In this document: one piece after another, positions 3,001 through 27,624 of the stretch
How the letters are laid out: each line of letters starts with the position of its first letter
Position numbering within the stretch: position 1 is the first letter of the stretch
Source: Candidatus Danuiimicrobium aquiferis
GTDB taxonomy: Bacteria; Omnitrophota; Omnitrophia; Omnitrophales; Danuiimicrobiaceae
Direction: 5' to 3'
NCBI GenBank assembly: GCA_001804285.1
Contig: MHFR01000042.1
Span: 14,725-78,724 of the forward strand
DNA: 64,000 nucleotides
Made by a program: the position numbers and the translations under genes
Notes under the pieces: model-generated
Databases searched by the model: none
What the model was told of the DNA's origin: nothing
Seen by the model: the letters and a program-made list of their open reading frames with translations, nothing else

Positions 3001-6000
3001 GGTGGCGGCGGCAAGCAAAGACGGCACGGTGAGGATTTGGAATGTCCAGTCAGATTCCGAACCAATCGTCATCGATACGCTTTCCGGGCCCCTTACTTCC
3101 ATTGATTTTTCTTTTGACGGCCAAAGGATTCTTACCGGCAGTAAACGCGGTGCGCTGCAACTTTGGGATGTGTTAATCGGTCGCTTTGTGGATGATTTGC
3201 CGATAAAGGCAAGAACAATTTTTGATGCCCAATTTTCTCCGGACGGACAAAGGATGGCTTCCTTATCCCATTCTATGGAAGATGGATTAAAGCTTTCCAT
3301 ATGGGACGTGCCTCAAAAGAAAATCATACGAACATTAGATCATGAGGCCTATCTGCAGACGTTTGCTTTTCATCCGAATGGCAAATGGTTGGTGACGGGA
3401 GATCAGGACTATCAAGTTTGTTTGTGGGACATTGAAACAGGCAGTAAACTCAGAACTTACCAGTCGGCCGTGAAACCCTTTGCTGTTGTTAATATACAAC
3501 CGCGCATTTTATCACTTGCCTTTTCTCCGGATGGGAAACTGGTTGCGGCCGGGAAACTGGATGGCAGTATTGAAGTGTGGGACGTTGAAACCGGCGGATC
3601 TCGTTACCTTTTCCAGAATTTGCCATTTAATGTTCCTACTTTAACATTTGCTCCGGATGGCCAATCTCTTATTTATTCAGGGTACAGACATAATGATACT
3701 TTTTTTGCGCCCATGCCGAGGATTATTGACTTGAGGCGCTATCCACAAACTTTCGTTTCGCATCGATATGGAAGAAGCGTTTCAAATGACGTGAGGCACT
3801 TCGTTTCAGGCGGGCAAGACATTACCCGTTCCGAAGTTCGTGAAGAAGAAGTGGCAGTCGGCAGTCAACAGTCCACAGATGTCATTGCGAGGAGCGGTAG
3901 CGACGAAGCAATCTCAGATTTGGGGATTGCTTCGGCAACACCTGGTTCACGTCTCGCAATGACGGGTAAATCCAGGGCCGAAGCGCGGGAAGGAAGCGCA
4001 CAAGTTCAAAAGAGCACACGTGCACAAGAAAATACGGAAACTTATGCGCCTATACCTGGTGCTCCTGTTCTCTTGCGAAGCAGCAGGTCTGAATCGCGGG
4101 CGGATGTTGATCCTAGGGTTTCTTCAGAACGTCATCGTGGTTCCCGACAACGCGGAGATAAAGGGAGTCGTCCATCCAGTCAAATGACAAACGGTAATGA
4201 ATATCAATTCGCGCTTCCCAAATATTTTTCGTTCCCTGGATTTTCTTTACATGGAGCGATGGATGTCGTGGATTTTCAGCAAGTATTTGGATTTGGCGGT
4301 CAGTTTTCTTTTGGATTGCAGATGGAAGAACTTGATAAAATTTTTGAAAGCTTTCGTAAGCGTATATTTTCACGAGTGGAGAAGTTTCAACAGTTCTTTA
4401 GCCGTGCCATTGCCCAAGATGCGTTTTGCGCGTTTGTTCTGGCTGGCAACGCTTTCTTTGGCTTGCCATTCCTTCGTCCAAAAATAAGCTTGGTCTGGAT
4501 TAATAGCAGAACGGCTTTTCAAGAAGATCGCAAACCTCAACACCTCTTGAGCTTCCGCCTCGGACAGCTGCTTAAAAATGATCGGCAGAATTTTATGAGT
4601 TTTCTTCGTTTCCATGTGCAAAATCTTAACACAGCACTCCATTTTATTCAACAGGAACTAACCGCTCGTTTGGAAATCAGCGGGGATATGGTGAATGGTA
4701 CGACTAATTACCACCAACCACTAATCACTAATCACGGACAAGTGAGGGCCGAAGCCCGCAACCTTGCGGCAGAAAATGGGACATTTTCTGCAATACCAAT
4801 CGAGGCGGGCAAGAGTACTTTTGATGTTTTGCCAGAAGCATCAAAACGTGCCGAAGCCCGGAAATCCGTGATATTAAGTTCGGGTAGAAACGGGAATACT
4901 CAAATTGATATGTTGAATATGGGTGAGAGGAATCCGGCGGCTCGCGTCGAGGATCTCCAAACCGAACACGCGCCCGTCTTTTCCGATGTCCATGATAATA
5001 CCGTCCCGGACTTTAATAGATTTTCCGACCTTTCCGGGTTGAAATCGTATGTAGAGCGCATCCGCTTCTTTATCAAATTCTATTTTCATCGGTTAACCCT
5101 TTTCCTCGAGCCAATAAGCCGTTATCAAAACCGTTTGATCCGCTTCCTTTTTGTAGACGACTTCCAGAATGTTATCATAGAAACGCTTTCTCGCCAAATA
5201 TCTTCCTCGATGAGCTTCTTTGGCGTTATCGGGACAGGTTACCGTTTCTTCGATCTGGCGTTGACTCAAATCCCGCTGCAAAATCCGTTTCTTGATATGT
5301 TTCGTGTATCTGAAAGTCATGAGTATCAGCTTCCATTATTAAAGAATAGGCAGCATAATAAGCCAGAAATGACTAATAATCAATATAATTATGCAGCAAA
5401 ATCAACCCGCTCCGAAGCGCGCCACGCTGAGGATAGCACCCAAGAAGTTTTTAATCAAAGCGCGCAAATGTCCTCGATACCGTCAAAATTGTTTACATCG
5501 AGGGCCGAAGCCCGCAACCTTGAAGCGGAAAATGGGACATTTTCTGCAACACCAATCGAAGCGGGCAAGAGTACTTTTGATGTTTCGACAGAAACATCAA
5601 AACGTGCCGAAGCGCGGATGCTTAAAGGTTTTAATACAGAGCAAAAAGCAATTATCGAAAAGACAGCGCATAAGCTGATCATGTTGTTCTTTTCTGACAA
5701 ATCCGTCACGGAACAGAATGCTTTGGAAAAAGATTTGATCAGCCGGATCCATCCCGCGACGTTGAGGCGGGTTATCTTTAGCAAAACAACTCTCATGACA
5801 ATCTCATGGACCCTGTGTATATCGGTCCTGCCGTTTGTTTTTCATCTATATAAATTAGTTGCTGTGTTTGGTTTTTTTGGCCTTTTTGCTCTGGGAAAGA
5901 TATTGGATCAGACCCTCAATGAAGAGACGCTGGGCTTTGTCAGCAAAGCCTATCCCGAAATATTTATCGGAACAGAATTGCCCGGATTTAAATTTGAACG

Positions 6001-9000
6001 CGGGGTCATTCATGAAATGCTGCACGTGTTGGCTAAAATGAAAAAAATTAAATATGATTCCCCATTCGCTTCCGCATTCGGCTTTCTGGCGGAGCATACT
6101 TCCTCGGATCCCGGGAAACCGCAGCTTTCCCCTTATCTGAGGCGTCCTGTTGGCAATTTGGGGGAAGGGATGGCGTTGGTTGAAAAAAATTTATCACCTC
6201 AAGAACGATGGGGGGCCTTGATTGCAAAATCGCTTTTTTCTGACAATTCTGAAAACATAACCAAACAAGATCCACGTGACTTTTTTGTCTCTTTAGCGCA
6301 TTGGTTGGAACCTGAAACGCGGGAATCCCGGGTATTGGGGGAATTATTGTCTGGGATGGCTTATGCCCTATCTCAGAAGAATTGGTTTGGTCTCGAGGAT
6401 GCGTGGGTTTATTTGGCCCGCATGGCAAAAGGAGAGCATCCTTTTGCTGTAGAAGAAGACCTAAACAATAAACAAAAAGAAAGAATATCCCATTCCAAAT
6501 TCCGCTCCGAAGCGCGCCAAGAGAGCGCACAAGAACACAAGCGCACAGGGACACAAGTAGAGATGAAAGCTGACGCGCCTGTGCCTTATGCTCCCATGCT
6601 CTTACGAAGCAGGGCCGAAGCGCGTTACAGCCGCAATAATCCAGAGCAGTCATCAATCGAAACGCGCAAGAGTCCTCGCGAGACACAAGAGGCTCAAGCG
6701 AGGGCCGAAGTGCGCGACGATAAAGACAGTTTAAAGCGTTCATCAATAGGAAGTGCACGAGAGTCCTCGATACGTTCCGAAGGGCTTGTATCGAGGGCCG
6801 AAGCCCGGACAATCTCAGAGCAAAAACGCTTTAGCCTGACACTGGAACACGTGAAGCCGCTTATTGAAAGAATTGCTGACACAGCCTATTTCCGTTGGCT
6901 TGCTAGAGATAAAGACAGCAGAACCGGTAAAAATGAAGGATTCGAAAAAGTGCAATGGCGGCGCTTGATAGATATTTCTGATCGTGCATGGGATCTTGAA
7001 AGTATGAGGCGGGAAGCATTAGGACAACTAGAAAAGTCCAATATGAACCCGGAATATTTAGAAAAAATAAAAAGCGAAACAAAAATAGAAATAATTATTT
7101 TGGAATATTTCGAGGAAGTTTTAGGGAGTTTAATCGGGAAATTAGAGTCTCCATTGAAATTGTCATTGAAAATGTTTTTGTTAAAAGCATACCCGCGTTC
7201 TGGGGAATGGACGGACTCTTTATTGGAAGAGGGAGCTATCGAAGCTGCGCGGAAAGAATATTATGACATCATTAATGAAATACTTAAGTGGCTTGATCCA
7301 ACATCAGTTTTGGAACGAGTTAATTCTCCCGAAGATTATCGAATTGATGTTTTAGGGCGGCCCAAGGATGGAGATATCCCTCGGATGGTTGACTTTCGAG
7401 GCAAACTTATCGCCAGAGAGAAAAAAGCCAAGCACCGAGCACCGTTTGCTTTTCGAAACGAACGGTTTGATACGATGATTCAAATTGGTCCCCAAGGCCT
7501 GGAAGAAGAAGAGATGCGCTTTCTTCAAAGTGCTTTTGATGAAAAGCCTGAAACTGATTCAGCCCCTACATTTTATGCCGTATTTTTTCCTCCATTTAGC
7601 TATTTATTGATCAGGAGATCGGTAATTAAGCAACGCGTAGTTTTCGATGTTGTTCCGGGTCGATGGGAGAAAGCGGTTCCGAATCCTAAAAAAATGCTCC
7701 CCTTTTTTATTAAGCGAGTGATCGATTACTATCAATTATTAGATAATCGCAAACCTCCTCAGATTTTGCTCGAGTTAGCTACGATCCCCATGCATTGGAA
7801 TGAAAGAAAGGTTCTTTTTGAGGAAAGCTATTTTGAGCCAGGTGATCCGGATTTTCGATCTGCGGCAACAACATATCCAGTACATTTTGAAAATGTATTG
7901 CGTAAGATTCGCTCCCGTTCCGAAGCGCGCCACCTTGAGGATAGCAATGATGTCATTCCCGCGAAGGCGGGAATCCAGCTGGATCCCCACTTTCGTGGGG
8001 ATGACACCGATTCCCGTGCCGAAGTACGTTCACAGATAGAAAAGACAAAACCCGAAAGTCCGATGGATTTGGTATTCGAGACTTTAGATCCACAAAAAAT
8101 AGCTGCTCAGATTGCAGCATCTAAGTATATAGAAGGTGAACTTGGAGAATTGAGCGCTCAAGTCACAAAAACAGGGCAAGGCAAACTGGATTCTGCGAAA
8201 GTCGAACTGGGCGCATTTTCGAAAAATTTAATAACAGAAATTAATAAACGTTCTGAAGTAAGACAAATTGCGGATTTTATATTTTCCGACGAAATAGAAC
8301 AGATGGCCAAGGATAGGGTGAATTTGTCATTCCCGCATGCTGTAAGCGGGAATCTATGGATCCCCGCTTTCGCGGGGATGACGGACGTGCTTATTAATCG
8401 TGCGCGTCTGGTTGTTTTCAATTCTGTTATTGGAGAGAATATTGCGATGGCCGATGAAGCATTACCAGCTTTGAGTGAGATCTCAAGCGAAGCGGCATTT
8501 TTACTCGCGCATCCGGATATTTTGAATGAAGCATATCGAATCAAATTTGGAAAAAGAACAGACAATGCAACCATACGCGCCGATCACGAATGGATCATCG
8601 GCATGGAATTTTTACCTCAAGCGTCAGATCCGCGGAGAATGGCGGCTGAACAGTTTTTGCGGAATTTAGTGCAAGCAAAAGACCGGGTGGCATTGACTTA
8701 TCAAAAAAATTCTCCTTACGCCGATATGGCAAGCGAGTTATCACAATCAATTCCGCAATTGTCACTTGTGGGGCACCGGTCAGATCTTGATCAAAAGAGA
8801 TTCGAAAGAGTATTTGGTATTTCGTATCCGTTTGTTATTGTGTCGGATAGCGTACCGTTTAAGACATCAACATGGCGGAAAAACGGAGTTCGCATTAATC
8901 CATATATGGCGCTTCGGTTGAAATTGGAATTTTCACAATTTATACGGCTGACACAATTTGCTGTCGAAGCCGGACTTCTCCGGAAGCAAATAGAAGAAAT

Positions 9001-9436: not shown

Positions 9437-11413
9437 TTGTTTTTGTTGTTAAGATTCCTCACCCTAACATTGTTCTTTCTCAATGTTTTTGGCTGCCGCG
9501 AGAAATCGTCACCGTCCGTTTTAGACAGCATTCCTCAGGGGAAAAGTTTACTTTCCATGTCGAATTTTGAAGTGATTGATCATTTCAATGTTGAGAATGG
9601 GAAAAATCAATTCAAACAAACCTGGAAAATTAACATTCCAACCGGTGCGGAAATTAAATTAAGCCGGGATCCCGAGGATGCGATTTATCACGGAGGTTCG
9701 CTTGGCGTAGAATATTCTATTCCCCCGAACCAGACTGCGGGCATATCCACGACGTTTAAAACACTTGATTTAAGCCGGGCCGAAACGGTGTTAATGTTAG
9801 TCCGTTCAGAGGACTTGAAAAATTATAGCGGCCGGCTGCAGCTGGTTCTTCGGGATCAGCGGGATAACAGGCAAGAAATCGATATTAAAAAATATGTCGA
9901 AGAAACCCGCGGCAACTGGGAAAAAATATTGATTCCGAAAAAAGATTTTGGGAAAATCAATTTCGACCAAATCGGAGAAGTTCAAATTGAATGGCGCGCC
10001 GGAAGTAAACCCGTAGCAGGCAAGATGGCAATTGATGAGATTGCGTTTGCTGGGCCGAAGGAATTGATTTTTGAATCAATGCTCGACAATTTAAAAGGGT
10101 TCCCGAAAGAAGCCATAGCCGAATCTCGGCGAAAAGAATTGATCGGGACAAAAGATGAAAAAGAGTTCCTCGGAAAAATCGCGGCAGATACATGGAAGTA
10201 TTTTGAAAATGTGGTGGACAAGAAAACAGCGCTCCCCGAGGATCATATTCGTACGGGAAGAACGCTTGCGATCGGAAATTACACGGGACCGACCAATATC
10301 GCTCTTTATTGGCTTTCGTGTGTCGGTGCTTATGATCTTTCTCTGATCTCTGAAAAAGTGGCGATCGAGAAAATTAAAACATCGCTCGATACGCTTGCCG
10401 GCATGGAGCATCCGGAATACGGTTTTTATTATAATTTTTATGAAACACACACGCTTCGCGCGACGAAGCGTTATTTATCGACCATTGACAATGCGTGGCT
10501 TGCGGCGGCTCTTGTAGTTCTTCGGCAGGCGTTTCCGCAGGAATTCAGTGCCCGGGCGAATGAGATTTTCAGCCGGATGAATTTTTCGAAATTTTATGAT
10601 GAAGCAAACGGCCAGTTAAGAATCGGATTTGATGAAGACTTAGGGGAACTATCGCCGTATCATTACGGCCTTCTCGCTTCTGAAGCGAGGCTTGCAAGTT
10701 ATATCGGAATCGGAAAAGGGGATTTAAAACAGGAACATTGGGCGAGGATTTACCGGACGTTGCCGAAAGAATGGAACTGGCAGAAACAGGTTCCGCAGGG
10801 AAGCCCGAAGGTTTTATTGAACGTTCCTATATTTCAGGGGTTTTATACATACCGCGATAAGAAATTTGTACCAAGCTGGGGCGGATCGCTCTTTGAATAT
10901 TTAGCGCCGACACTCGTTGTGGATGAGCAAACATACGGTCGCGAAAATTTGGGCAGGAACAATGAAATTGTGACAGATCTACATATCTTATATGCCATCC
11001 GGGATAAGAAATATCCTGTTTGGGGCATTGCTCCGTGCGCGATTCAATACGGGAGAAATTGGCAATATAAAGAATATGGGATTCCGGAATTAGCCGCAAA
11101 AGGATATCCGGACGAAGGAGTGGTTGCGCCGTATGCGAGTTTTCTTGCGCTCGCGACACGGCCCAAAAATGCGGTCGAAAATTTCCGGAACCTGCTTGCC
11201 GAATACGATGAAATCTACGGCGAATTCGGTTTTTACGATTCGGTGGTTGTCGCGAGCGGAAAAGTGGATCAGCAATATTTATTAATTGATCAAGCGATGA
11301 ATTTTATTGCGATGGTAAATTACCTGAAACAAGGATCGATCACGAAGCGGTTTCATTCGGATCCGGTCGGTAAAAAAGCGGAGGTTTTATTGAAAGAAGA
11401 AAAATTTTTTTGA
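9437..11413 (+). CDS. Secreted lipoprotein, putative (alpha/alpha)6-barrel glycoside hydrolase (GH144/DUF3131-like) with N-terminal CBM-like beta-sandwich
   Basis: TTG start follows an RBS 'agaagg'. A signal peptide and lipobox 'LNVFGC' are present. The N-terminal ~170 aa are similar to the adjacent 203-aa CBM-like protein. The family assignment rests on weak motif memory. Confidence 0.45.
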   Translation: MFLLLRFLTLTLFFLNVFGCREKSSPSVLDSIPQGKSLLSMSNFEVIDHFNVENGKNQFKQTWKINIPTGAEIKLSRDPEDAIYHGGSLGVEYSIPPNQTAGISTTFKTLDLSRAETVLMLVRSEDLKNYSGRLQLVLRDQRDNRQEIDIKKYVEETRGNWEKILIPKKDFGKINFDQIGEVQIEWRAGSKPVAGKMAIDEIAFAGPKELIFESMLDNLKGFPKEAIAESRRKELIGTKDEKEFLGKIAADTWKYFENVVDKKTALPEDHIRTGRTLAIGNYTGPTNIALYWLSCVGAYDLSLISEKVAIEKIKTSLDTLAGMEHPEYGFYYNFYETHTLRATKRYLSTIDNAWLAAALVVLRQAFPQEFSARANEIFSRMNFSKFYDEANGQLRIGFDEDLGELSPYHYGLLASEARLASYIGIGKGDLKQEHWARIYRTLPKEWNWQKQVPQGSPKVLLNVPIFQGFYTYRDKKFVPSWGGSLFEYLAPTLVVDEQTYGRENLGRNNEIVTDLHILYAIRDKKYPVWGIAPCAIQYGRNWQYKEYGIPELAAKGYPDEGVVAPYASFLALATRPKNAVENFRNLLAEYDEIYGEFGFYDSVVVASGKVDQQYLLIDQAMNFIAMVNYLKQGSITKRFHSDPVGKKAEVLLKEEKFF

Positions 11414-15029: not shown

Positions 15030-15155
15030 AATGACCAAATCCGCCCTCCAAAAGACATGGCGGGCAGGCAATGACGCAAAGAAATCCCAACAGAATAATT
15101 CCCAATTGGGCCTTGAAATTTTGAAACTTCCTTGGCCATTGCGGATTTGGTCATT
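15030..15155 (+). repeat. MITE family C (terminal inverted repeats aatgaccaaatccgc ... gcggatttggtcatt) followed by T-run; acts as bioB terminator
   Basis: The 14-nt termini are perfect inverted repeats. Related copies lie at 20609-20694 and, partially, at 24522. Confidence 0.7.
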
Positions 15156-15191
15156 GGGATTTTTTTTACTAAAAATTGTGACCTAAAACTT

Positions 15192-16297: not shown

Positions 16298-16328
16298 TTA
16301 TTTAGAGATTTGAAGTTATTAATAAATT

Positions 16329-16376
16329 CCCTCACCCTAACCCTCTCCCTCGGGGAGAGGGCAGGGGTGAGGGGTG
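16329..16376 (+). repeat. GC-rich nested palindrome family B (ccctcaccc..ccctctccc-tcgg-ggagaggg..gggtgaggg)
   Basis: The same architecture occurs at 26835-26881. An expanded copy sits in-frame in the GH1 gene at 22981-23140. Confidence 0.8.
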
Positions 16377-16406
16377 ATCCGGGCGAATAAATCAAAAAGG
16401 GAATCC

Positions 16407-20597: not shown

Positions 20598-20608
20598 GAA
20601 AAAAATTC

Positions 20609-20694
20609 AATGACCAAGCACGCAATAACCAAAGAAATTTCAAAATTTCAAATCCCAATTGGGTATTATTCGTTTGGGATTTTATTGGTCATTG
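20609..20694 (+). repeat. MITE family C copy (aatgaccaa...ttggtcatt)
   Basis: It shares termini and internal 'aaagaaat..tcccaattggg' blocks with the copy at 15030-15155. Confidence 0.65.
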
Positions 20695-21979: not shown

Positions 21980-21990
21980 AATCAGCAGTT

Positions 21991-22080
21991 CAAGGCGGTG
22001 TTTGCCCGCTCGGACAGCGTAAAAAGCTAAGCGGGGAGACTATGCCGCTTTTTCCGAACTCGCGGAGAAACACCGCCTTG
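21991..22080 (+). repeat. Large imperfect palindrome (caaggcggtgtttgcccgctcgg ... ccgaactcgcggagaaacaccgccttg)
   Basis: It lies downstream of the flavoprotein gene and shares the ccgaactcgcgg core with 17665 and, in reverse complement, with 22165. Confidence 0.6.
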
Positions 22081-22364
22081 AGCTGCCGCTTATTATCCAA
22101 GCTACGGAAAATTTTGTTCGAGAAAAATAACAATGAAAGAAAAAAGGCGTAACATGGTGGTTATCCGCGAGTTCGGGAAAAGCGATTGACTTTCACTAAT
22201 TAGCTTTTTCCGCTGTCCGTCCTTGAGCCTCATTAAATTTTATTTATTGGGGAAGCTCAAGAACGGTACTGACTACCGAATTAATACTATCTTTGCGTTT
22301 CTTAAATGAAAGTCAGTGCCGAGCGGGAACCACCATGTTGCGCCGGTGGGTTAAGGTGTCTATG

Positions 22365-23789
22365 AAAAAGGAAAAATTTTCCTTTCCACCCAACTTCCTT
22401 TGGGGCGCAGCCACGTCCTCGCATCAAGTCGAGGGGGACAACCGGAATAATGACTGGTGGGAGTGGGAAGAAGCGGACCGGGTGAAGGAAAAATCCGGAA
22501 AAGCCTGTGACCATTGGAACCGGTTTCGTGCGGATTTTGCGCTTGCGAAATCGCTCGGCCACAACGCGCACCGGTTTTCCATTGAATGGAGCCGGATCGA
22601 GCCGGAAGAAGGCATATTCAGCGAAGAAGCGCTTTATCATTACGGTGAAATGATTAAGACGCTCCGGATATTCGGAATCGAGCCGATGGTGACATTCTAT
22701 CACTTCACGATTCCGCTTTGGTTTGCGAAAAAAGGAGGGTGGCTTCTCGATGAATCTCCCGAAATTTTTGCGCGCTATGTGAGAAAGGTGGTTGAAACAA
22801 TCGACACGCCGGTCCGTTACTGGATTACGATGAATGAAATGATGGTGTATGTCTACAAAGGATTTATTGCCGGAGAATGGCCGCCGGGTGAGAAGTCATA
22901 CGAAAAAGCATTTCGCGTGTTGGGGAATTTGTTAAGAGGGCATGTGCTTGCCTACCAAGTCATTAAAGAGATAACCGCCACTCACCCCCTCCACACTAAT
23001 GGCGGGCAAGCTAACCCTCTCCCTCAGGGAGAGGGCAGTCCAAACTCCCACAGGCAGTCCTTGCAGCGAAGCGGAGAGGGCAGTCCAAACTCCCACAGGC
23101 AGTCCTTGCAGCGAAGCGGAGAGGGCAGGGGTGAGGGGTTGGTTGGTGTTGCGCAGTTTTCGGCCGTTTATGCGCCTTGTTCAAAATGGTCGTGGCGGCA
23201 TCGCTTATCGACATGGTTCCGGGCAAAAATGACAAATCATCTTGCAACCGAAGCGATGGTTTACGGAAAAGTGAATTATCCGGGTTTGTTTCAAATTAAA
23301 CTGCCGCGTGCCAGGACGCTTGATTTTATCGGGATTAATTATTATACGCGCTATTTCATTCACAATCGCGGATTTAACGCAGCAGGCCTTTTGGGTGATG
23401 ATTGCACGCTCGAACATCATCGCGATGTGGGCAAGCGAACCATGATGGACTGGGAAATTTATCCTCGCGGACTTTCTCAGCTGGTGAAAGAATTTTCAAA
23501 ATATAAATTGCCGATTTTGATTTCCGAAAACGGAATAGCAACCGCTGATGACAATGAACGCGCGGAATTTATTCAGAATCATTTGGGCGAACTCGCTCGC
23601 GCGATGTCCGAAGGTGCAAACGTCATCGGTTACCTTTATTGGTCCCTTCTCGACAATTTCGAGTGGGCCGACGGTTTTTTCAAACGTTTTGGCCTCATTG
23701 AAATCGATTACACCAACCAGCACCGCCGCGTCCGAAAGTCCGCGGAAAAATTTGCAGAGATTTGTGCTCACGGAGAAATTTTGATATAA
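22365..23789 (+). CDS. GH1 beta-glucosidase carrying an in-frame ~55-aa insertion derived from a palindromic repeat
   Basis: GH1 motifs are intact: 'FLWGAATSSHQVEG', 'HRFSIEWSRIEP', 'TMNEM', nucleophile 'ISENG' and 'WSLLDNFEW'. ATG 22365 with RBS 'aaggtg' is the likely start. Confidence 0.8.
   Translation, partial: KKEKFSFPPNFLWGAATSSHQVEGDNRNNDWWEWEEADRVKEKSGKACDHWNRFRADFALAKSLGHNAHRFSIEWSRIEPEEGIFSEEALYHYGEMIKTLRIFGIEPMVTFYHFTIPLWFAKKGGWLLDESPEIFARYVRKVVETIDTPVRYWITMNEMMVYVYKGFIAGEWPPGEKSYEKAFRVLGNLLRGHVLAYQVIKEITATHPLHTNGGQANPLPQGEGSPNSHRQSLQRSGEGSPNSHRQSLQRSGEGRGEGLVGVAQFSAVYAPCSKWSWRHRLSTWFRAKMTNHLATEAMVYGKVNYPGLFQIKLPRARTLDFIGINYYTRYFIHNRGFNAAGLLGDDCTLEHHRDVGKRTMMDWEIYPRGLSQLVKEFSKYKLPILISENGIATADDNERAEFIQNHLGELARAMSEGANVIGYLYWSLLDNFEWADGFFKRFGLIEIDYTNQHRRVRKSAEKFAEICAHGEILI
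22981..23140 (+). repeat. Family-B GC-rich palindrome plus 48-nt perfect tandem duplication, inserted in-frame in GH1 gene
   Basis: The element runs 'ccctctccctcagggagaggg' ... 'gggcaggggtgaggggt'. The unit 'gagggcagtccaaactcccacaggcagtccttgcagcgaagcgga' occurs twice, encoding GEGSPNSHRQSLQRSG twice. Confidence 0.8.
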
Positions 23790-25322: not shown

Positions 25323-25436
25323 CGCCAAAGGACACAATTTTAATTGCATGCTCTAAAAAGACATCCCCAACCAATTCACTTTCCATATCTCTTAATCATT
25401 GCTATAATTATTCCTTTCGGAGGAAAGCGAGAAAGT

Positions 25437-26831
25437 ATGCCTGTTGCCAGCCAAAAGAGACAATCCGCCAAGCGGGAAAAGTTTGACCAGAAGCTTCTTA
25501 CCAATTGGGATAAACAGTTTATCTGGCATCCGTTTACGCAGATGAGCGATTGGGAAAAAGAGGATATTCTCGTTATCGAGTCGGGAAAAGGATCTTATCT
25601 GAAAGATGTGAACGGGAAACGTTATTTAGACGGCGTTTCTTCGCTTTGGTGCAATGTTCATGGTCACCGCATAAAAGATTTGGATCAAGCGGTGAAAAGC
25701 CAGCTTACCCGGGTTGCTCATTCCACTTTTTTGGGGCTATCGAACGTCCCCGCCATTTTGCTCTCAAAGAAATTGATCGAAATTATGCCGGAAGAACTCA
25801 CACGCGTTTTTTATTCAGATTCTGGTTCGGAAGCCGTTGAAATTTCGCTCAAAATCGCATATCAATATTGGCAGCACAAAGGGGAGAAAACGCGGAAAAA
25901 ATTTTTAAGATTGACAAACGCTTATCACGGAGACACGATCGGATCGGTCAGTGTCGGCGGAATGGATTTATTCCACGAAATTTATAAACCCCTTCTTTTT
26001 GATTCTGTCGAGGTGAAAGCACCGTACCGTTATCGCGACGCATTCATCGGGGGTGAGGAAGAATATACAAATGATTGCATTGAGCGGCTTGAAAATGTCC
26101 TTAATCAACACAAGAATGAAATCTGCGCATTCATCATGGAACCTCTTGTGCAGGGCGCGGCAGGCATGATTCTTCAACCGCCGGGGTATCTTGCGGCCGT
26201 CCGTCAAATAACGAAGAAATACGATATTCTTCTCATCCTTGACGAAGTAGCAACGGGGTTTGGCCGGACGGGAAAAATGTTTGCGTGCGAACATGAATCG
26301 GTTTCGCCGGATATCATGTGCGTTGCCAAAGGGTTGACCGGCGGATACCTTCCGCTGGCCGCGACATTTGCAACGGAAGAAATTTACCGGGCATTTCTTG
26401 GAAAATATGAAGATGCAAAAACGTTTTTTCACGGACATACTTATACGGCCAATCCGCTTGCGTGCGCGGTTGCGCTTGCGAATATCGAATATTTTGAAAA
26501 AGAAAATGTTCTTCAAAATTTACAACCCAAGATCAAAATCTTATGCGAAGGCCTGGAAAATTTCAGGGAGCTGAAACATGTCGGTGACATCAGGCAGTGC
26601 GGTTTCATGGTGGGCATTGAACTTGTCAAAGGCAAAAAAGATAAAACCCCATACGAAATGAAAGAAAAAATAGGAATCCGCGTCATTCAGAAAGCGCGTT
26701 CTCTCGGTGTGATTTTGCGGCCGCTCGGGAATGTCATTATTTTAATGCCACCGCTTGGGATCACCGTTGTGGAGCTCAGGAAATTATTGCGCGTGACGTA
26801 TCAATCGATCCGGTTTGTGACTGAAGGATAA
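25437..26831 (+). CDS. bioA: Adenosylmethionine-8-amino-7-oxononanoate aminotransferase
   Basis: It is a class-III aminotransferase with 'ILDEVATGFGRTGKMFA'. ATG 25437 follows an RBS 'ggagg'. Confidence 0.85.
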   Translation: MPVASQKRQSAKREKFDQKLLTNWDKQFIWHPFTQMSDWEKEDILVIESGKGSYLKDVNGKRYLDGVSSLWCNVHGHRIKDLDQAVKSQLTRVAHSTFLGLSNVPAILLSKKLIEIMPEELTRVFYSDSGSEAVEISLKIAYQYWQHKGEKTRKKFLRLTNAYHGDTIGSVSVGGMDLFHEIYKPLLFDSVEVKAPYRYRDAFIGGEEEYTNDCIERLENVLNQHKNEICAFIMEPLVQGAAGMILQPPGYLAAVRQITKKYDILLILDEVATGFGRTGKMFACEHESVSPDIMCVAKGLTGGYLPLAATFATEEIYRAFLGKYEDAKTFFHGHTYTANPLACAVALANIEYFEKENVLQNLQPKIKILCEGLENFRELKHVGDIRQCGFMVGIELVKGKKDKTPYEMKEKIGIRVIQKARSLGVILRPLGNVIILMPPLGITVVELRKLLRVTYQSIRFVTEG

Positions 26832-26834
26832 AAG

Positions 26835-27624
<790 letters not shown>

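What the first reader, a model, noticed from the sequence alone, without database searches (positions are those of the whole stretch)
22981..23140. In-frame insertion of a GC-rich palindromic element plus a 48-nt perfect tandem duplication in a GH1 beta-glucosidase
The GH1 catalytic motifs on both sides are intact. About 160 nt matching the intergenic family-B palindromes at 16329 and 26835 (ccctcaccc/ggagaggg/gggtgaggg) are inserted in frame. They add 'PLPQGEGSPNSHRQSLQRSGEGSPNSHRQSLQRSGEGRGEG' and contain an exact 48-nt tandem repeat.

This shows that a second repeat family also colonises coding sequence without frame disruption. The insertion is probably in a surface loop, so the enzyme may remain active.
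Basis: seen in the sequence. Interest (0 to 1): 0.65.

Follow-up and report, generated by a model that had tools for sequence, protein, structure and literature searches.

The report
BoxC triplex-motif repeat inside a beta-glucosidase gene
A short GC-rich palindrome known in E. coli only between genes (BoxC/PIT/"triplex motif") sits in frame inside a surface loop of a family 1 glycoside hydrolase (GH1) beta-glucosidase gene of a groundwater Omnitrophica bacterium, and part of it varies in copy number between samples; I found the same kind of in-gene insertion in many other bacterial phyla.

Summary
The GH1 gene (22362-23789, +) carries 46 extra codons that none of 22 homologs (52-64% identity) has. 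They lie between helix alpha4 and strand beta5. In the AlphaFold model they are disordered and the barrel and both catalytic Glu residues are kept.

Only about 48 nt of the ~159-nt insert match the intergenic palindromes at 16329 and 26835. The rest is a 20-nt spacer plus a perfect tandem repeat with a 45-nt period (not 48), 2.2 copies, at 23028-23128.

The "family B palindrome" is a known element: BoxC / PIT / TM_ECO (Holder 2015). It is 96% identical to E. coli copies, and its exact 22-mer occurs in more than 15 phyla.

The duplication is not an assembly artefact in any simple sense. Eleven contigs carry two copies, six protein records (five ENA contigs and one NCBI MAG protein) carry one, and one further contig carries one copy plus a stop codon.

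At least 12 of 120 copies in other genomes are also in frame inside real genes such as AlaRS, an RND pump and AsnB. Several copies carry similar tandem arrays that repeat one arm of the element.

Most likely this is a selfish or structure-prone repeat tolerated in a loop and expanded by slippage. It is a new variant of a known kind, of moderate interest.

The parts
22362..23789 (+). GH1 beta-glucosidase gene. The start is inferred from homolog N-termini; NCBI calls the start at 22335, and the mechanical ORF starts at 22293.
   Evidence: Pfam PF00232 6e-82. 100% identical to OGW80552.1 of Omnitrophica bacterium RIFCSPLOWO2_12_FULL_44_17. Best PDB match 1vff, 1e-98.
22980..23138 (+). Whole in-frame insert, codons 207-259 (THPLH...GRGEG). 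This is 53 codons, a net +46 compared with the homologs.
   Evidence: Alignment A1. AlphaFold: helix 180-207, coil 208-259 with pLDDT<50 at 212-256, strand 260-272.
22978..22992 (+). Degenerate outer-left arm (CCACTCACCCCCTCC), complementary to the outer-right arm GGGGTGAGGGG.
   Evidence: Inverted repeat I3, 10 of 11 complementary. Compare CCCTCACCC at 16329 and 26836.
22993..23012 (+). Unique 20-nt spacer ACACTAATGGCGGGCAAGCT (about codons HTNGGQA). It is either extra sequence inside the element or a remnant of the native loop.
   Evidence: No other copy in the window at up to 3 mismatches. Codon arithmetic.
23013..23035 (+). Core BoxC hairpin AA-CCCTCTCCC-TCA-GGGAGAGGG (blocks 1 and 2 of the triplex motif).
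   Evidence: 96% identical to 16337-16364 (family D8).
23028..23128 (+). Perfect tandem array: 45-nt unit x 2.2 (GGAGAGGGCAG + 34 unique nt). It encodes GEGSPNSHRQSLQRS twice. Copy number is 1 or 2 in different samples.
   Evidence: TRF score 202, 100% matches.. Alleles.
23118..23138 (+). Right end GGAGAGGG-CAG-GGGTGAGGGG (blocks 2 and 3), identical to 16354-16375.
   Evidence: Family D13, 100%..
16329..16374 (.). Intergenic four-block palindromic BoxC/TM element. The published TM_ECO pattern is met on both strands.
   Evidence: 96% identity to E. coli copies.
26835..26881 (.). Intergenic BoxC/TM element, 4 nt after the stop codon of the aminotransferase (PF00202 Aminotran_3) ORF 25344-26831 and upstream of an ORF starting at 26912. 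TM_ECO pattern met on the + strand.
22833..22841 (+). Acid/base motif N158-E159-M160 (NEM; all 22 homologs have NEP), at the C-terminal end of beta4.
23520..23534 (+). Nucleophile motif I-S-E389-N-G on beta7.
   Evidence: Invariant columns E389 N390 G391. Strand 385-390.

Best explanation
The insert is a copy of the BoxC / PIT / TM_ECO repeat. This is a widespread GC-rich nested palindrome, CCCTCACCC-CCCTCTCCC-loop-GGGAGAGGG-GGGTGAGGG.

**Shown**
- The copy landed in the codons of the alpha4->beta5 loop of a GH1 beta-glucosidase.
- That loop is on the non-catalytic face of the TIM barrel.
- The element is read in one of its two stop-free frames (...HP..NPLPxGEG..GRGEG), so it adds a Pro/Gly/Glu-rich, probably disordered loop.

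**Inferred**
- The copy was kept because it stays in frame in a permissive surface loop.
- The element then grew from within. Extra sequence separates the arms, and the reiterated 11-nt arm GGAGAGGGCAG provides direct repeats.
- Replication slippage, or hairpin-promoted template switching, on those repeats adds or removes 45-nt (15-codon) units. This would produce the one-copy and two-copy alleles seen in the aquifer population.
- The element has no demonstrated function here. It behaves like selfish or structure-prone DNA, and its survival inside genes is filtered by reading frame and by loop tolerance.
- The enzyme is probably still folded and may be active.
For: **Identity of the element**
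- The window copy at 16327-16377 hits all 5426 complete E. coli genomes, with a median of 17 places per genome and up to 96% identity over 90% of its length.
- One such E. coli locus, in the phnL-phnK spacer, was read directly.
- The E. coli sequences are those tabulated as TM_ECO/BoxC in PMC4666352.
- The published pattern CCCTCNCCC-N3-6-GGGNGAGGG-N3-GGGNGAGGG is met at 16341-16373(+), 16329-16361(-) and 26847-26879(+).

**Insertion and its position**
-.

**Open reading frames of the element**
- Two of three frames are stop-free on each strand.

**Polymorphism**
- Identical flanks carry 2 units (11 contigs; 3 NCBI MAGs), 1 unit (5 ENA contigs plus OGW92079.1), or 1 unit plus a GAG->TAG change.

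**Generality**
- The exact 22-mer occurs in more than 117 stretches from many phyla.
- In 12 of 20 tested cases, the ORF spanning the element has Pfam domains on both sides or across it, so the element is inside a real gene.

**Same expansion architecture elsewhere**
- Arm-plus-spacer tandem arrays occur in L079 (33 nt x 2.9), L044 (44 nt x 5.2), L028, L094, and in frame inside a DegT gene in L005 (33 nt x 5.6).
- 6 of 120 elements have such an array within 60 nt, against 2.0 expected; 52 of 5000 randomisations reach 6.

**Literature**
- TM_ECO loci show raised local instability, and slippage has been proposed as the cause.
Against: - No empty-site allele exists; the nearest homolog is 58-64% identical. 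The insertion event and its exact boundaries are therefore inferred, not seen.
- The 20-nt and 34-nt spacers have no detectable source.
- Seven codons are unaccounted for. Either a native loop segment was lost, or the HTNGGQA piece is native and the element is split. A simple one-step insertion does not predict the second case.
- No mobilising enzyme is known for BoxC. No target-site duplication is visible at any of the three copies.
- The one-copy allele could in principle be a collapsed assembly; read-level data were not available.
- Enzyme activity is untested. The NEP->NEM change, 8 deviations at 117 otherwise invariant columns (other sequences show 0-5), and the nonsense allele hint at relaxed constraint.
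Confidence: 0.75

Rival explanations
1. The tandem duplication, or the whole insert, is an assembly artefact.
For: Short-read metagenome assemblies can mis-resolve tandem repeats. Different assemblies disagree on copy number, 1 versus 2.
Against: The two-copy sequence is identical in 11 contigs and in three independently binned NCBI MAGs. The array is only 101 nt, shorter than the final MEGAHIT k-mer (contigs are named k141_) and shorter than typical reads, so a false extra copy is hard to generate. The flanks are identical in all alleles. The insert itself is present in every assembly.
Confidence: 0.06
2. The GH1 gene is a decaying pseudogene. The insert, its expansion and the nonsense allele are symptoms of lost selection, not a tolerated loop.
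For: NEP->NEM at the acid/base motif. The window sequence has the highest count of deviations at otherwise invariant columns: 8 of 117, and 18 of 177 at the 90% level. One allele has a stop codon inside the insert.
Against: The ORF is intact over 475 codons in 16 of 17 contigs. Both catalytic Glu residues and 109 of 117 otherwise invariant positions are kept. The modelled barrel is intact. The window sequence is the outgroup of the alignment, so some excess deviation is expected; P0114 and P0037 show 14-15 at the 90% level. All length changes are multiples of 3.
Confidence: 0.2
3. The insert has a selected function. Options include a copy-number-variable disordered loop that alters oligomerisation or localisation, an mRNA or DNA structure (hairpin, triplex or G-quadruplex) that tunes expression, or a contingency locus.
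For: Copy-number polymorphism in a natural population. The same element recurs in frame in many genes. In-vitro triplex and G4 formation by the motif has been published.
Against: The published studies found no promoter or terminator activity and no triplex in vivo. In GH1 the three-block triplex pattern and the G4 motif are both broken. The RNA fold is no better than shuffled sequence, z = -1.05. No terminator-like site is present. The host genes are functionally unrelated. The 15-aa unit has no relatives.
Confidence: 0.1
4. Two-part origin. The 21-nt HTNGGQA segment is the native loop, and BoxC-derived sequence was added on both sides of it, through separate events or repair-templated copying from another BoxC locus, rather than one element being inserted whole.
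For: All 22 homologs have an 11-codon loop. ITA + HTNGGQA + L is exactly 11 codons. The remaining 12 + 36 nt equals one canonical ~48-nt element plus 45-nt units.
Against: Other expanded BoxC copies also hold unique spacers between their arms (L044, L079, L005), so an internal spacer needs no special origin. HTNGGQA shows no similarity to the homolog loops. No known mechanism splits the element in this way.
Confidence: 0.2

Closest known systems
BoxC / PIT (potential intrastrand triplex) / TM_ECO motif of E. coli and other bacteria (Bachellier; Hoyne & Maher 2000; Holder et al. 2015, PMC4666352; also the 'HPG1/HPG2 G-quadruplex-hairpin switch' of Kaplan et al. 2016, PMC5100583)
   Same: Same sequence blocks, CCCTCTCCC / GGGAGAGGG / GGGTGAGGG, with 3-nt loops. 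The minus strand of the 16329 copy differs from E. coli TM_ECO no. 17 by one loop base. 96% identity by blastn. Multi-copy. The two other window copies sit in short spacers between co-directional genes. There is local length instability.
   Different: In E. coli every copy is intergenic ("none within" ORFs), whereas here one copy is translated. The host is a candidate-phylum Omnitrophica bacterium with about 44% GC; the published TM_ECO census found the pattern only in proteobacterial genomes. The window copies are four-block fused palindromes rather than pairs separated by spacers. In the GH1 copy the third block is displaced on both strands, so the strict pattern is not met.
Rickettsia palindromic elements (RPE; Ogata et al. 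2000, as summarised in PMC10969869)
   Same: Short palindromic repeats inserted in frame into unrelated housekeeping genes, at positions judged compatible with the protein fold. They add a peptide segment without destroying the gene.
   Different: RPEs are ~100-150 bp, restricted to Rickettsia, form ten families, and encode a conserved peptide. BoxC is ~35-48 nt, GC-rich and found across phyla. There is no sequence relationship.
REP/BIME elements mobilised by RAYT (IS200/IS605-like) transposases, and bacterial MITEs including intragenic ERIC (Delihas 2007, cited in PMC10969869)
   Same: Small, abundant hairpin-forming repeats, mostly near the 3' ends of genes. Occasional intragenic in-frame copies have been reported for ERIC and for MITEs.
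   Different: No target-site duplication is visible at the three window copies. No associated transposase is known for BoxC. The element is far shorter than typical MITEs.
Intragenic variable-number tandem repeats generated by slipped-strand mispairing
   Same: A perfect 45-nt (15-codon) unit, flanked by an 11-nt direct repeat, varies between 1 and 2 copies in a population and always stays in frame.
   Different: Here the repeat is seeded by an arm of an inserted palindromic element, not by native coding sequence. No link to surface antigens or phase variation is evident.

Membership tests
BoxC / PIT / TM_ECO | Sequence pattern 5'-CCCTCNCCC N3-6 GGGNGAGGG N3 GGGNGAGGG-3' (Holder 2015) | tested here: met
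   For the family in this genome, the regex hits 16341-16373(+), 16329-16361(-) and 26847-26879(+). The pattern itself is quoted from the paper.
BoxC / PIT / TM_ECO | The same contiguous three-block pattern in the GH1 copy itself | tested here: not met
   Only blocks 1 and 2 are contiguous (23015-23035). Block 3 is displaced by 45-90 nt on the + strand and by 20 nt on the - strand, where it is also degenerate. The GH1 copy is a derived, expanded member, not a canonical one.
BoxC / PIT / TM_ECO | Direct sequence similarity to E. coli BoxC copies | tested here: met
   blastn found matches in 5426 of 5426 genomes, up to 96.4% identity over 90% of the 51-nt query. A locus was read directly. Matches Table 1 of PMC4666352.
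BoxC / PIT / TM_ECO | Exclusively intergenic location (as reported for E. coli) | tested here: not met
   The GH1 copy is translated. At least 12 further in-frame genic copies were found in other phyla. This is a reported property rather than a definition.
BoxC / PIT / TM_ECO | Association with local sequence instability | tested here: met
   One-copy, two-copy and nonsense alleles exist on identical flanks. Tandem arrays are enriched next to elements: 6 observed, 2.0 expected, and 52 of 5000 randomisations reach 6.
BoxC / PIT / TM_ECO | Forms an intrastrand triplex or G-quadruplex | not testable with these tools
   Only shown in vitro for E. coli oligonucleotides. The G4 regex hits the intergenic copies but not the GH1 insert.
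Rickettsia palindromic elements (RPE) | In-frame insertion into protein-coding genes at structurally permissive sites | tested here: met
   The insert is in the alpha4->beta5 loop, is disordered in the model, and the barrel is kept.
Rickettsia palindromic elements (RPE) | Sequence membership in RPE families 1-10 of Rickettsia | not tested
   No RPE sequences were compared. The size (~48 nt core against ~100-150 bp), the GC content and the host all differ. This is an analogy of behaviour only.
MITE | Terminal inverted repeats plus a flanking target-site duplication | tested here: not met
   The outer arms are inverted repeats, but no direct repeat flanks any of the three copies by inspection.
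REP/RAYT | Associated RAYT (Y1 transposase) gene and REP-type hairpin with a conserved 5' tetranucleotide | not tested
   The window ORFs were not screened for PF01797. The literature reports no mobile-element association for BoxC.
Glycoside hydrolase family 1 | (beta/alpha)8 barrel with an acid/base Glu after beta4 (NEP) and a nucleophile Glu after beta7 (ENG) | tested here: met
   PF00232 at 6e-82. E159 and E389 are present. Foldseek match to 1vff, TM 0.81/0.91. Caveat: the motif reads NEM instead of NEP.

The most novel reading that the evidence does not exclude
BoxC/TM_ECO is not a purely extragenic enterobacterial curiosity. It may be a pan-bacterial element that routinely colonises protein-coding genes in frame, in about 10% of exact-match copies sampled here. 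The genes hit include AlaRS, RND pumps, asparagine synthase, NuoL, an E2 acyltransferase and HsdM. Once inside a gene, the element seeds tandem expansions that repeat one of its arms. These create length-polymorphic, Pro/Gly/Glu-rich disordered loops within natural populations. That would make it an RPE-like route of protein evolution operating across phyla, with no known mobilising enzyme.
Probability: 0.45. Interest if true: 0.6.

Novelty: new variant of a known kind. Interest (0 to 1): 0.45.

Why it matters
BoxC/PIT/TM_ECO has been known for three decades without an assigned function or a known means of spread. Both detailed E. coli studies stress that it never lies inside genes.

This locus shows a translated copy in an uncultured candidate phylum, caught with one-unit, two-unit and nonsense alleles in one aquifer population. 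The quick survey done here suggests that in-frame genic copies are common outside E. coli.

That gives three things:
- a concrete, testable system (GH1 with 0, 1 or 2 units) for asking how such repeats are tolerated;
- a natural read-out of the instability attributed to these motifs;
- a caution for annotators that GEGRGEG / PLPxGEG-type loops in metagenomic proteins are repeat-derived.

The finding does not reveal a new mechanism or a new class of element.

Tried and rejected
- **Peptide searches.** A protein word search with the insert peptide returned no candidates. An exhaustive HMMER search of 1.84 billion representatives gave two low-complexity, unrelated hits. The 15-aa unit is therefore not a protein repeat family.
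- **Source of the spacers.** I searched for the 20-nt and 34/37-nt spacers in the window at up to 3 mismatches and for a 22-mer from the 37-nt spacer in JGI metagenome contigs. Nothing was found.
- **RNA families.** Rfam found no family anywhere in the window.
- **Transcription and mRNA structure.** No internal terminator or promoter turned up. The mRNA fold is -72.9 kcal/mol but z = -1.05, no better than shuffled sequence.
- **Loss of triplex potential in coding copies.** I tested whether coding copies must lose it. They do not: 7 of 12 genic copies keep the strict pattern, against 46 of 108 others.
- **Phage-borne spread.** The pattern occurs in at least 120 IMG/VR contigs but in only 4 of 50,697 curated phage genomes. 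This is inconclusive.
- **CRISPR-like array.** Rejected, because the "spacers" are identical.
- **Intein or intron.** Rejected. The insert is too short, has no matching motifs and no Rfam hit.
- **Empty-site allele.** None exists. The protein database has nothing between 100% and 58-64% identity.
Full report
**1. What is in the sequence**

Window 22293-23789 (+) is a single uninterrupted ORF. It matches Pfam Glyco_hydro_1 at 6e-82, but in two stretches that break at the reported region.

The protein is 100% identical to OGW80552.1 from the MAG "Omnitrophica bacterium RIFCSPLOWO2_12_FULL_44_17", also listed as Candidatus Danuiimicrobium aquiferis. The next best relatives are only 58-64% identical.

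Judging from homolog N-termini, the real start is probably the ATG at 22362 (MKKEKFSFPP...). Residue numbers below count from there.

**2. The insertion**

I aligned the protein with 22 homologs from two subclades of Omnitrophica and Elusimicrobia GH1 enzymes.
- The window protein has one clean extra block of 46 residues.
- The block lies between ...GHVLAYQVIKEITA and LVGVAQ....
- All 22 homologs have the same 11-residue connection at this point.

The AlphaFold2 model built on that alignment has pTM 0.83 and the full (beta/alpha)8 succession.
- Helix 180-207 is followed by coil 208-259, with pLDDT below 50 at 212-256, and then strand 260-272.
- The strand order places the acid/base E159 at the end of beta4 (153-158) and the nucleophile E389 on beta7 (385-390). 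The insert is therefore in the alpha4->beta5 connection.
- From the established topology of TIM barrels, alpha->beta connections lie on the face opposite the catalytic beta->alpha loops.
- Foldseek aligns the model to P. horikoshii beta-glycosidase 1vff with TM 0.81 by query length and 0.91 by target length. The phmmer match to 1vff also breaks exactly at the insert.

**3. Anatomy of the insert**

| Window coordinates | Piece | Sequence |
|---|---|---|
| 22978-22992 | Degenerate outer-left arm, 10 of 11 complementary to the outer-right arm | CCACTCACCCCCTCC |
| 22993-23012 | Unique spacer, 20 nt | ACACTAATGGCGGGCAAGCT |
| 23013-23035 | Core hairpin | AA-CCCTCTCCC-TCA-GGGAGAGGG |
| 23028-23128 | Perfect tandem array, 45-nt period, 2.2 copies | unit = GGAGAGGGCAG + 34 unique nt |
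| 23118-23138 | Right end, identical to 16354-16375 | GGAGAGGG-CAG-GGGTGAGGGG |

- The repeat period is 45 nt (15 codons, GEGSPNSHRQSLQRS), not 48.
- Only about 48 of the ~159 nt are palindrome-family sequence.
- The two diagnostic 9-mers occur nowhere else in the 64 kb apart from the three loci. Chance expectation is about 0.3 hits each.

**4. What the palindrome family is**

The intergenic copy at 16327-16377 was used as a blastn query.
- It hits every one of 5426 complete E. coli genomes, with a median of 17 places per genome and up to 96% identity over 90% of the query.
- One hit, in the phnL-phnK spacer, was read directly.

A full-text search for the 9-mers led to two papers.
- Holder et al. 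2015 (PMC4666352) tabulate exactly these sequences as TM_ECO, the motif formerly called BoxC or PIT (potential intrastrand triplex) element.
- Kaplan et al. 2016 (PMC5100583) describe the same E. coli loci as a G-quadruplex-hairpin switch.

The published pattern CCCTCNCCC-N3-6-GGGNGAGGG-N3-GGGNGAGGG is met at 16341-16373(+), 16329-16361(-) and 26847-26879(+). The minus strand of the first copy differs from E. coli TM_ECO no. 17 by one loop base.

According to those papers, the motif:
- forms a stable triplex, or a G4, in vitro but not detectably in vivo;
- has no promoter or terminator activity;
- is not linked to transposons, phages or plasmids;
- is associated with raised local sequence variability, for which slippage at stalled forks is proposed;
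- is always intergenic in E. coli ("none within" ORFs).

In the GH1 copy only the two-block hairpin is contiguous. The third block is displaced on both strands, and no G4 motif remains.

**5. Is the duplication real?**

The 90%-identity cluster of this protein holds several length variants.

| Allele | Evidence |
|---|---|
| Two units | 11 contigs, including three NCBI MAG proteins (OGW80552, OGW97389, OGX04462) |
| One unit | 5 ENA contigs (P0123) and OGW92079.1 (P0121) |
| One unit, split gene | 1 ENA contig |

- The DNA alignment of representative loci shows identical flanks. The only differences are one versus two 45-nt units and, in the split gene, a G->T change that turns GGA GAG into GGA TAG inside the insert.
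- The 101-nt array is shorter than the final MEGAHIT k-mer (contigs are named k141_). A spurious extra unit is therefore unlikely. A collapsed unit cannot be excluded without reads.
- I conclude that the two-unit form is real and that the copy number is very probably polymorphic in the aquifer population.

**6. Is the gene alive?**

In favour:
- an open frame of 475 codons in 16 of 17 contigs;
- both catalytic Glu residues kept;
- 109 of 117 otherwise invariant columns kept;
- an intact modelled barrel;
- all length changes are multiples of 3.

Against:
- NEP->NEM next to the acid/base Glu;
- the highest count of deviations at conserved columns in the alignment, 8 against 0-5, though the query is the outgroup;
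- the nonsense allele.

I put the chance of pseudogenisation at about 0.2.

**7. Is this a one-off?**

They come from:
- Alpha-, Beta-, Gamma- and Deltaproteobacteria, Myxococcota;
- Verrucomicrobia, Planctomycetes, Acidobacteria, Chloroflexi;
- Armatimonadetes, Nitrospirae, Nitrospinae, Gemmatimonadetes;
- Methylomirabilota, Bacteroidota and others.

Of the 120 copies, 26 sit in a stop-free frame with at least 100 codons on each side. I tested the 20 longest such ORFs against Pfam, and 12 are bona fide genes with domains across or on both sides of the element:
- an RND transporter;
- alanyl-tRNA synthetase;
- asparagine synthase;
- an HsdM methylase;
- a GH15 enzyme;
- anthranilate synthase I (in a linker);
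- a GT4 glycosyltransferase (in a linker);
- a UvrA-like ATPase;
- a DegT aminotransferase;
- a NuoL/Mrp subunit;
- a DUF4838 protein;
- an E2 acyltransferase (lipoyl-domain linker).

The frames used are those predicted to be open, two of three on each strand. They give GEGRGEG, GERAGVRG, PLTPALSP or PHPCPLP peptides.

So at least 10% of these copies are translated. This contrasts with the E. coli picture and matches the behaviour described for Rickettsia palindromic elements.

**8. Expansion architecture**

TRF was run on the same 117 loci.
- It finds tandem arrays of period 20 or more within 60 nt of 6 of 120 elements. Random positions give 2.0 on average, and 52 of 5000 randomisations reach 6.
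- In five of the six, the unit is one arm of the element plus a unique spacer.
- In the two arrays read in full (L079 and L044) the array is nested between the outer arms.

| Locus | Organism or context | Unit |
|---|---|---|
| L079 | Yokenella | 33 nt x 2.9 |
| L044 | Enterobacteriaceae | 44 nt x 5.2 |
| L028 | Desulfobacteraceae MAG | 33 nt x 2.3 |
| L094 | not examined | 102 nt x 3.2 |
| L005 | in frame inside a DegT gene | 33 nt x 5.6 |

The GH1 45-nt array has the same design. This supports arm-mediated slippage or template switching as the generator, in line with the instability reported for TM_ECO loci.

Genic copies keep the strict triplex pattern as often as the rest: 7 of 12 against 46 of 108. 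Loss of triplex potential is therefore not a condition for living in a gene.

**9. What remains unexplained**

- The 20-nt and 34-nt unique pieces have no detectable source.
- The insert occupies 53 codons but the net gain is 46. The seven-codon difference equals the HTNGGQA piece. Either seven native codons were lost, or that piece is the native loop now bracketed by element halves.
- No empty site is available to decide between these.
- How a ~46-nt sequence stays near-identical from Omnitrophota to E. coli without a known mobilising enzyme is the standing puzzle of this family. The pattern is in at least 120 IMG/VR contigs but in only 4 of 50,697 curated phage genomes.

**10. Verdict**

- The element belongs to a known family (BoxC/PIT/TM_ECO) in an unreported situation: translated, expanded, polymorphic, and in a candidate phylum.
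- The behaviour is analogous to RPEs.
- I rate it a new variant of a known kind, with interest about 0.45.

Noticed in passing
window 7955-7974, 8329-8353, 8360-8379 (also 11532, 17727, 25224, 31970, 32008, 39016): A second hairpin repeat family, GTCATTCCCGCGAAAGCGGGAATCCAG. Three copies lie in a stop-free frame of one giant ORF, with at least 2651 codons upstream. The other copies look intergenic.
   Followed up: partly
window 21980-22219 (intergenic, 5' of the GH1 gene): Long imperfect inverted repeats: 22011-22074 with 22156-22219 (64 nt, 78%) and 21980-22009 with 22062-22091 (30 nt, 83%). Nature unknown.
   Followed up: no
window 15077-15165 and 20599-20687: An 89-nt inverted repeat (81% complementary) brackets a 5.4-kb segment.
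   Followed up: no
window 22839-22841: The GH1 acid/base motif reads NEM, whereas all 22 homologs and 1vff have NEP. The window protein deviates at 8 of 117 otherwise invariant columns.
   Followed up: partly
L002 about 3190-3200 (ENA ERZ27254846 k141_94567), equivalent to window ~23075: A one-unit allele with a G->T change that makes a TAG stop inside the insert and splits the GH1 gene into 232-aa and 186-aa ORFs.
   Followed up: yes
P0122 (JGI, 2.1-kb contig), residues ~92-99 of the 488-aa form: Another allele carries an extra EGIF (EGIFEGIF). This implies a 12-nt in-frame tandem duplication elsewhere in the same gene.
   Followed up: no
window 9455-9468: A possible orphan left arm of the BoxC element, TTCCTCACCCTAAC, with no partner arms.
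   Followed up: no
L005 700-902 (MAG Proteobacteria bacterium KR13_N2.mb.84): A DegT/DnrJ/EryC1 aminotransferase gene carries a BoxC element preceded by an in-frame 33-nt x 5.6 tandem array (HPCLSPSPSAG repeats). It is a mirror image of the GH1 case.
   Followed up: partly
L122-L201 (IMG/VR contigs); phage records H11-H14; E. coli plasmids: The strict TM_ECO pattern occurs in at least 120 predicted viral contigs. It is in only 4 of 50,697 curated phage genomes, including two Campylobacter phages, and at 73 places on E. coli plasmids. The 2015 paper reported no association with mobile elements.
   Followed up: partly
window as a whole: There are three BoxC/TM elements in 64 kb. That is roughly ten times the density of E. 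coli K-12, which has 23 in 4.6 Mb according to PMC4666352. This is an extrapolation from a single window only.
   Followed up: no
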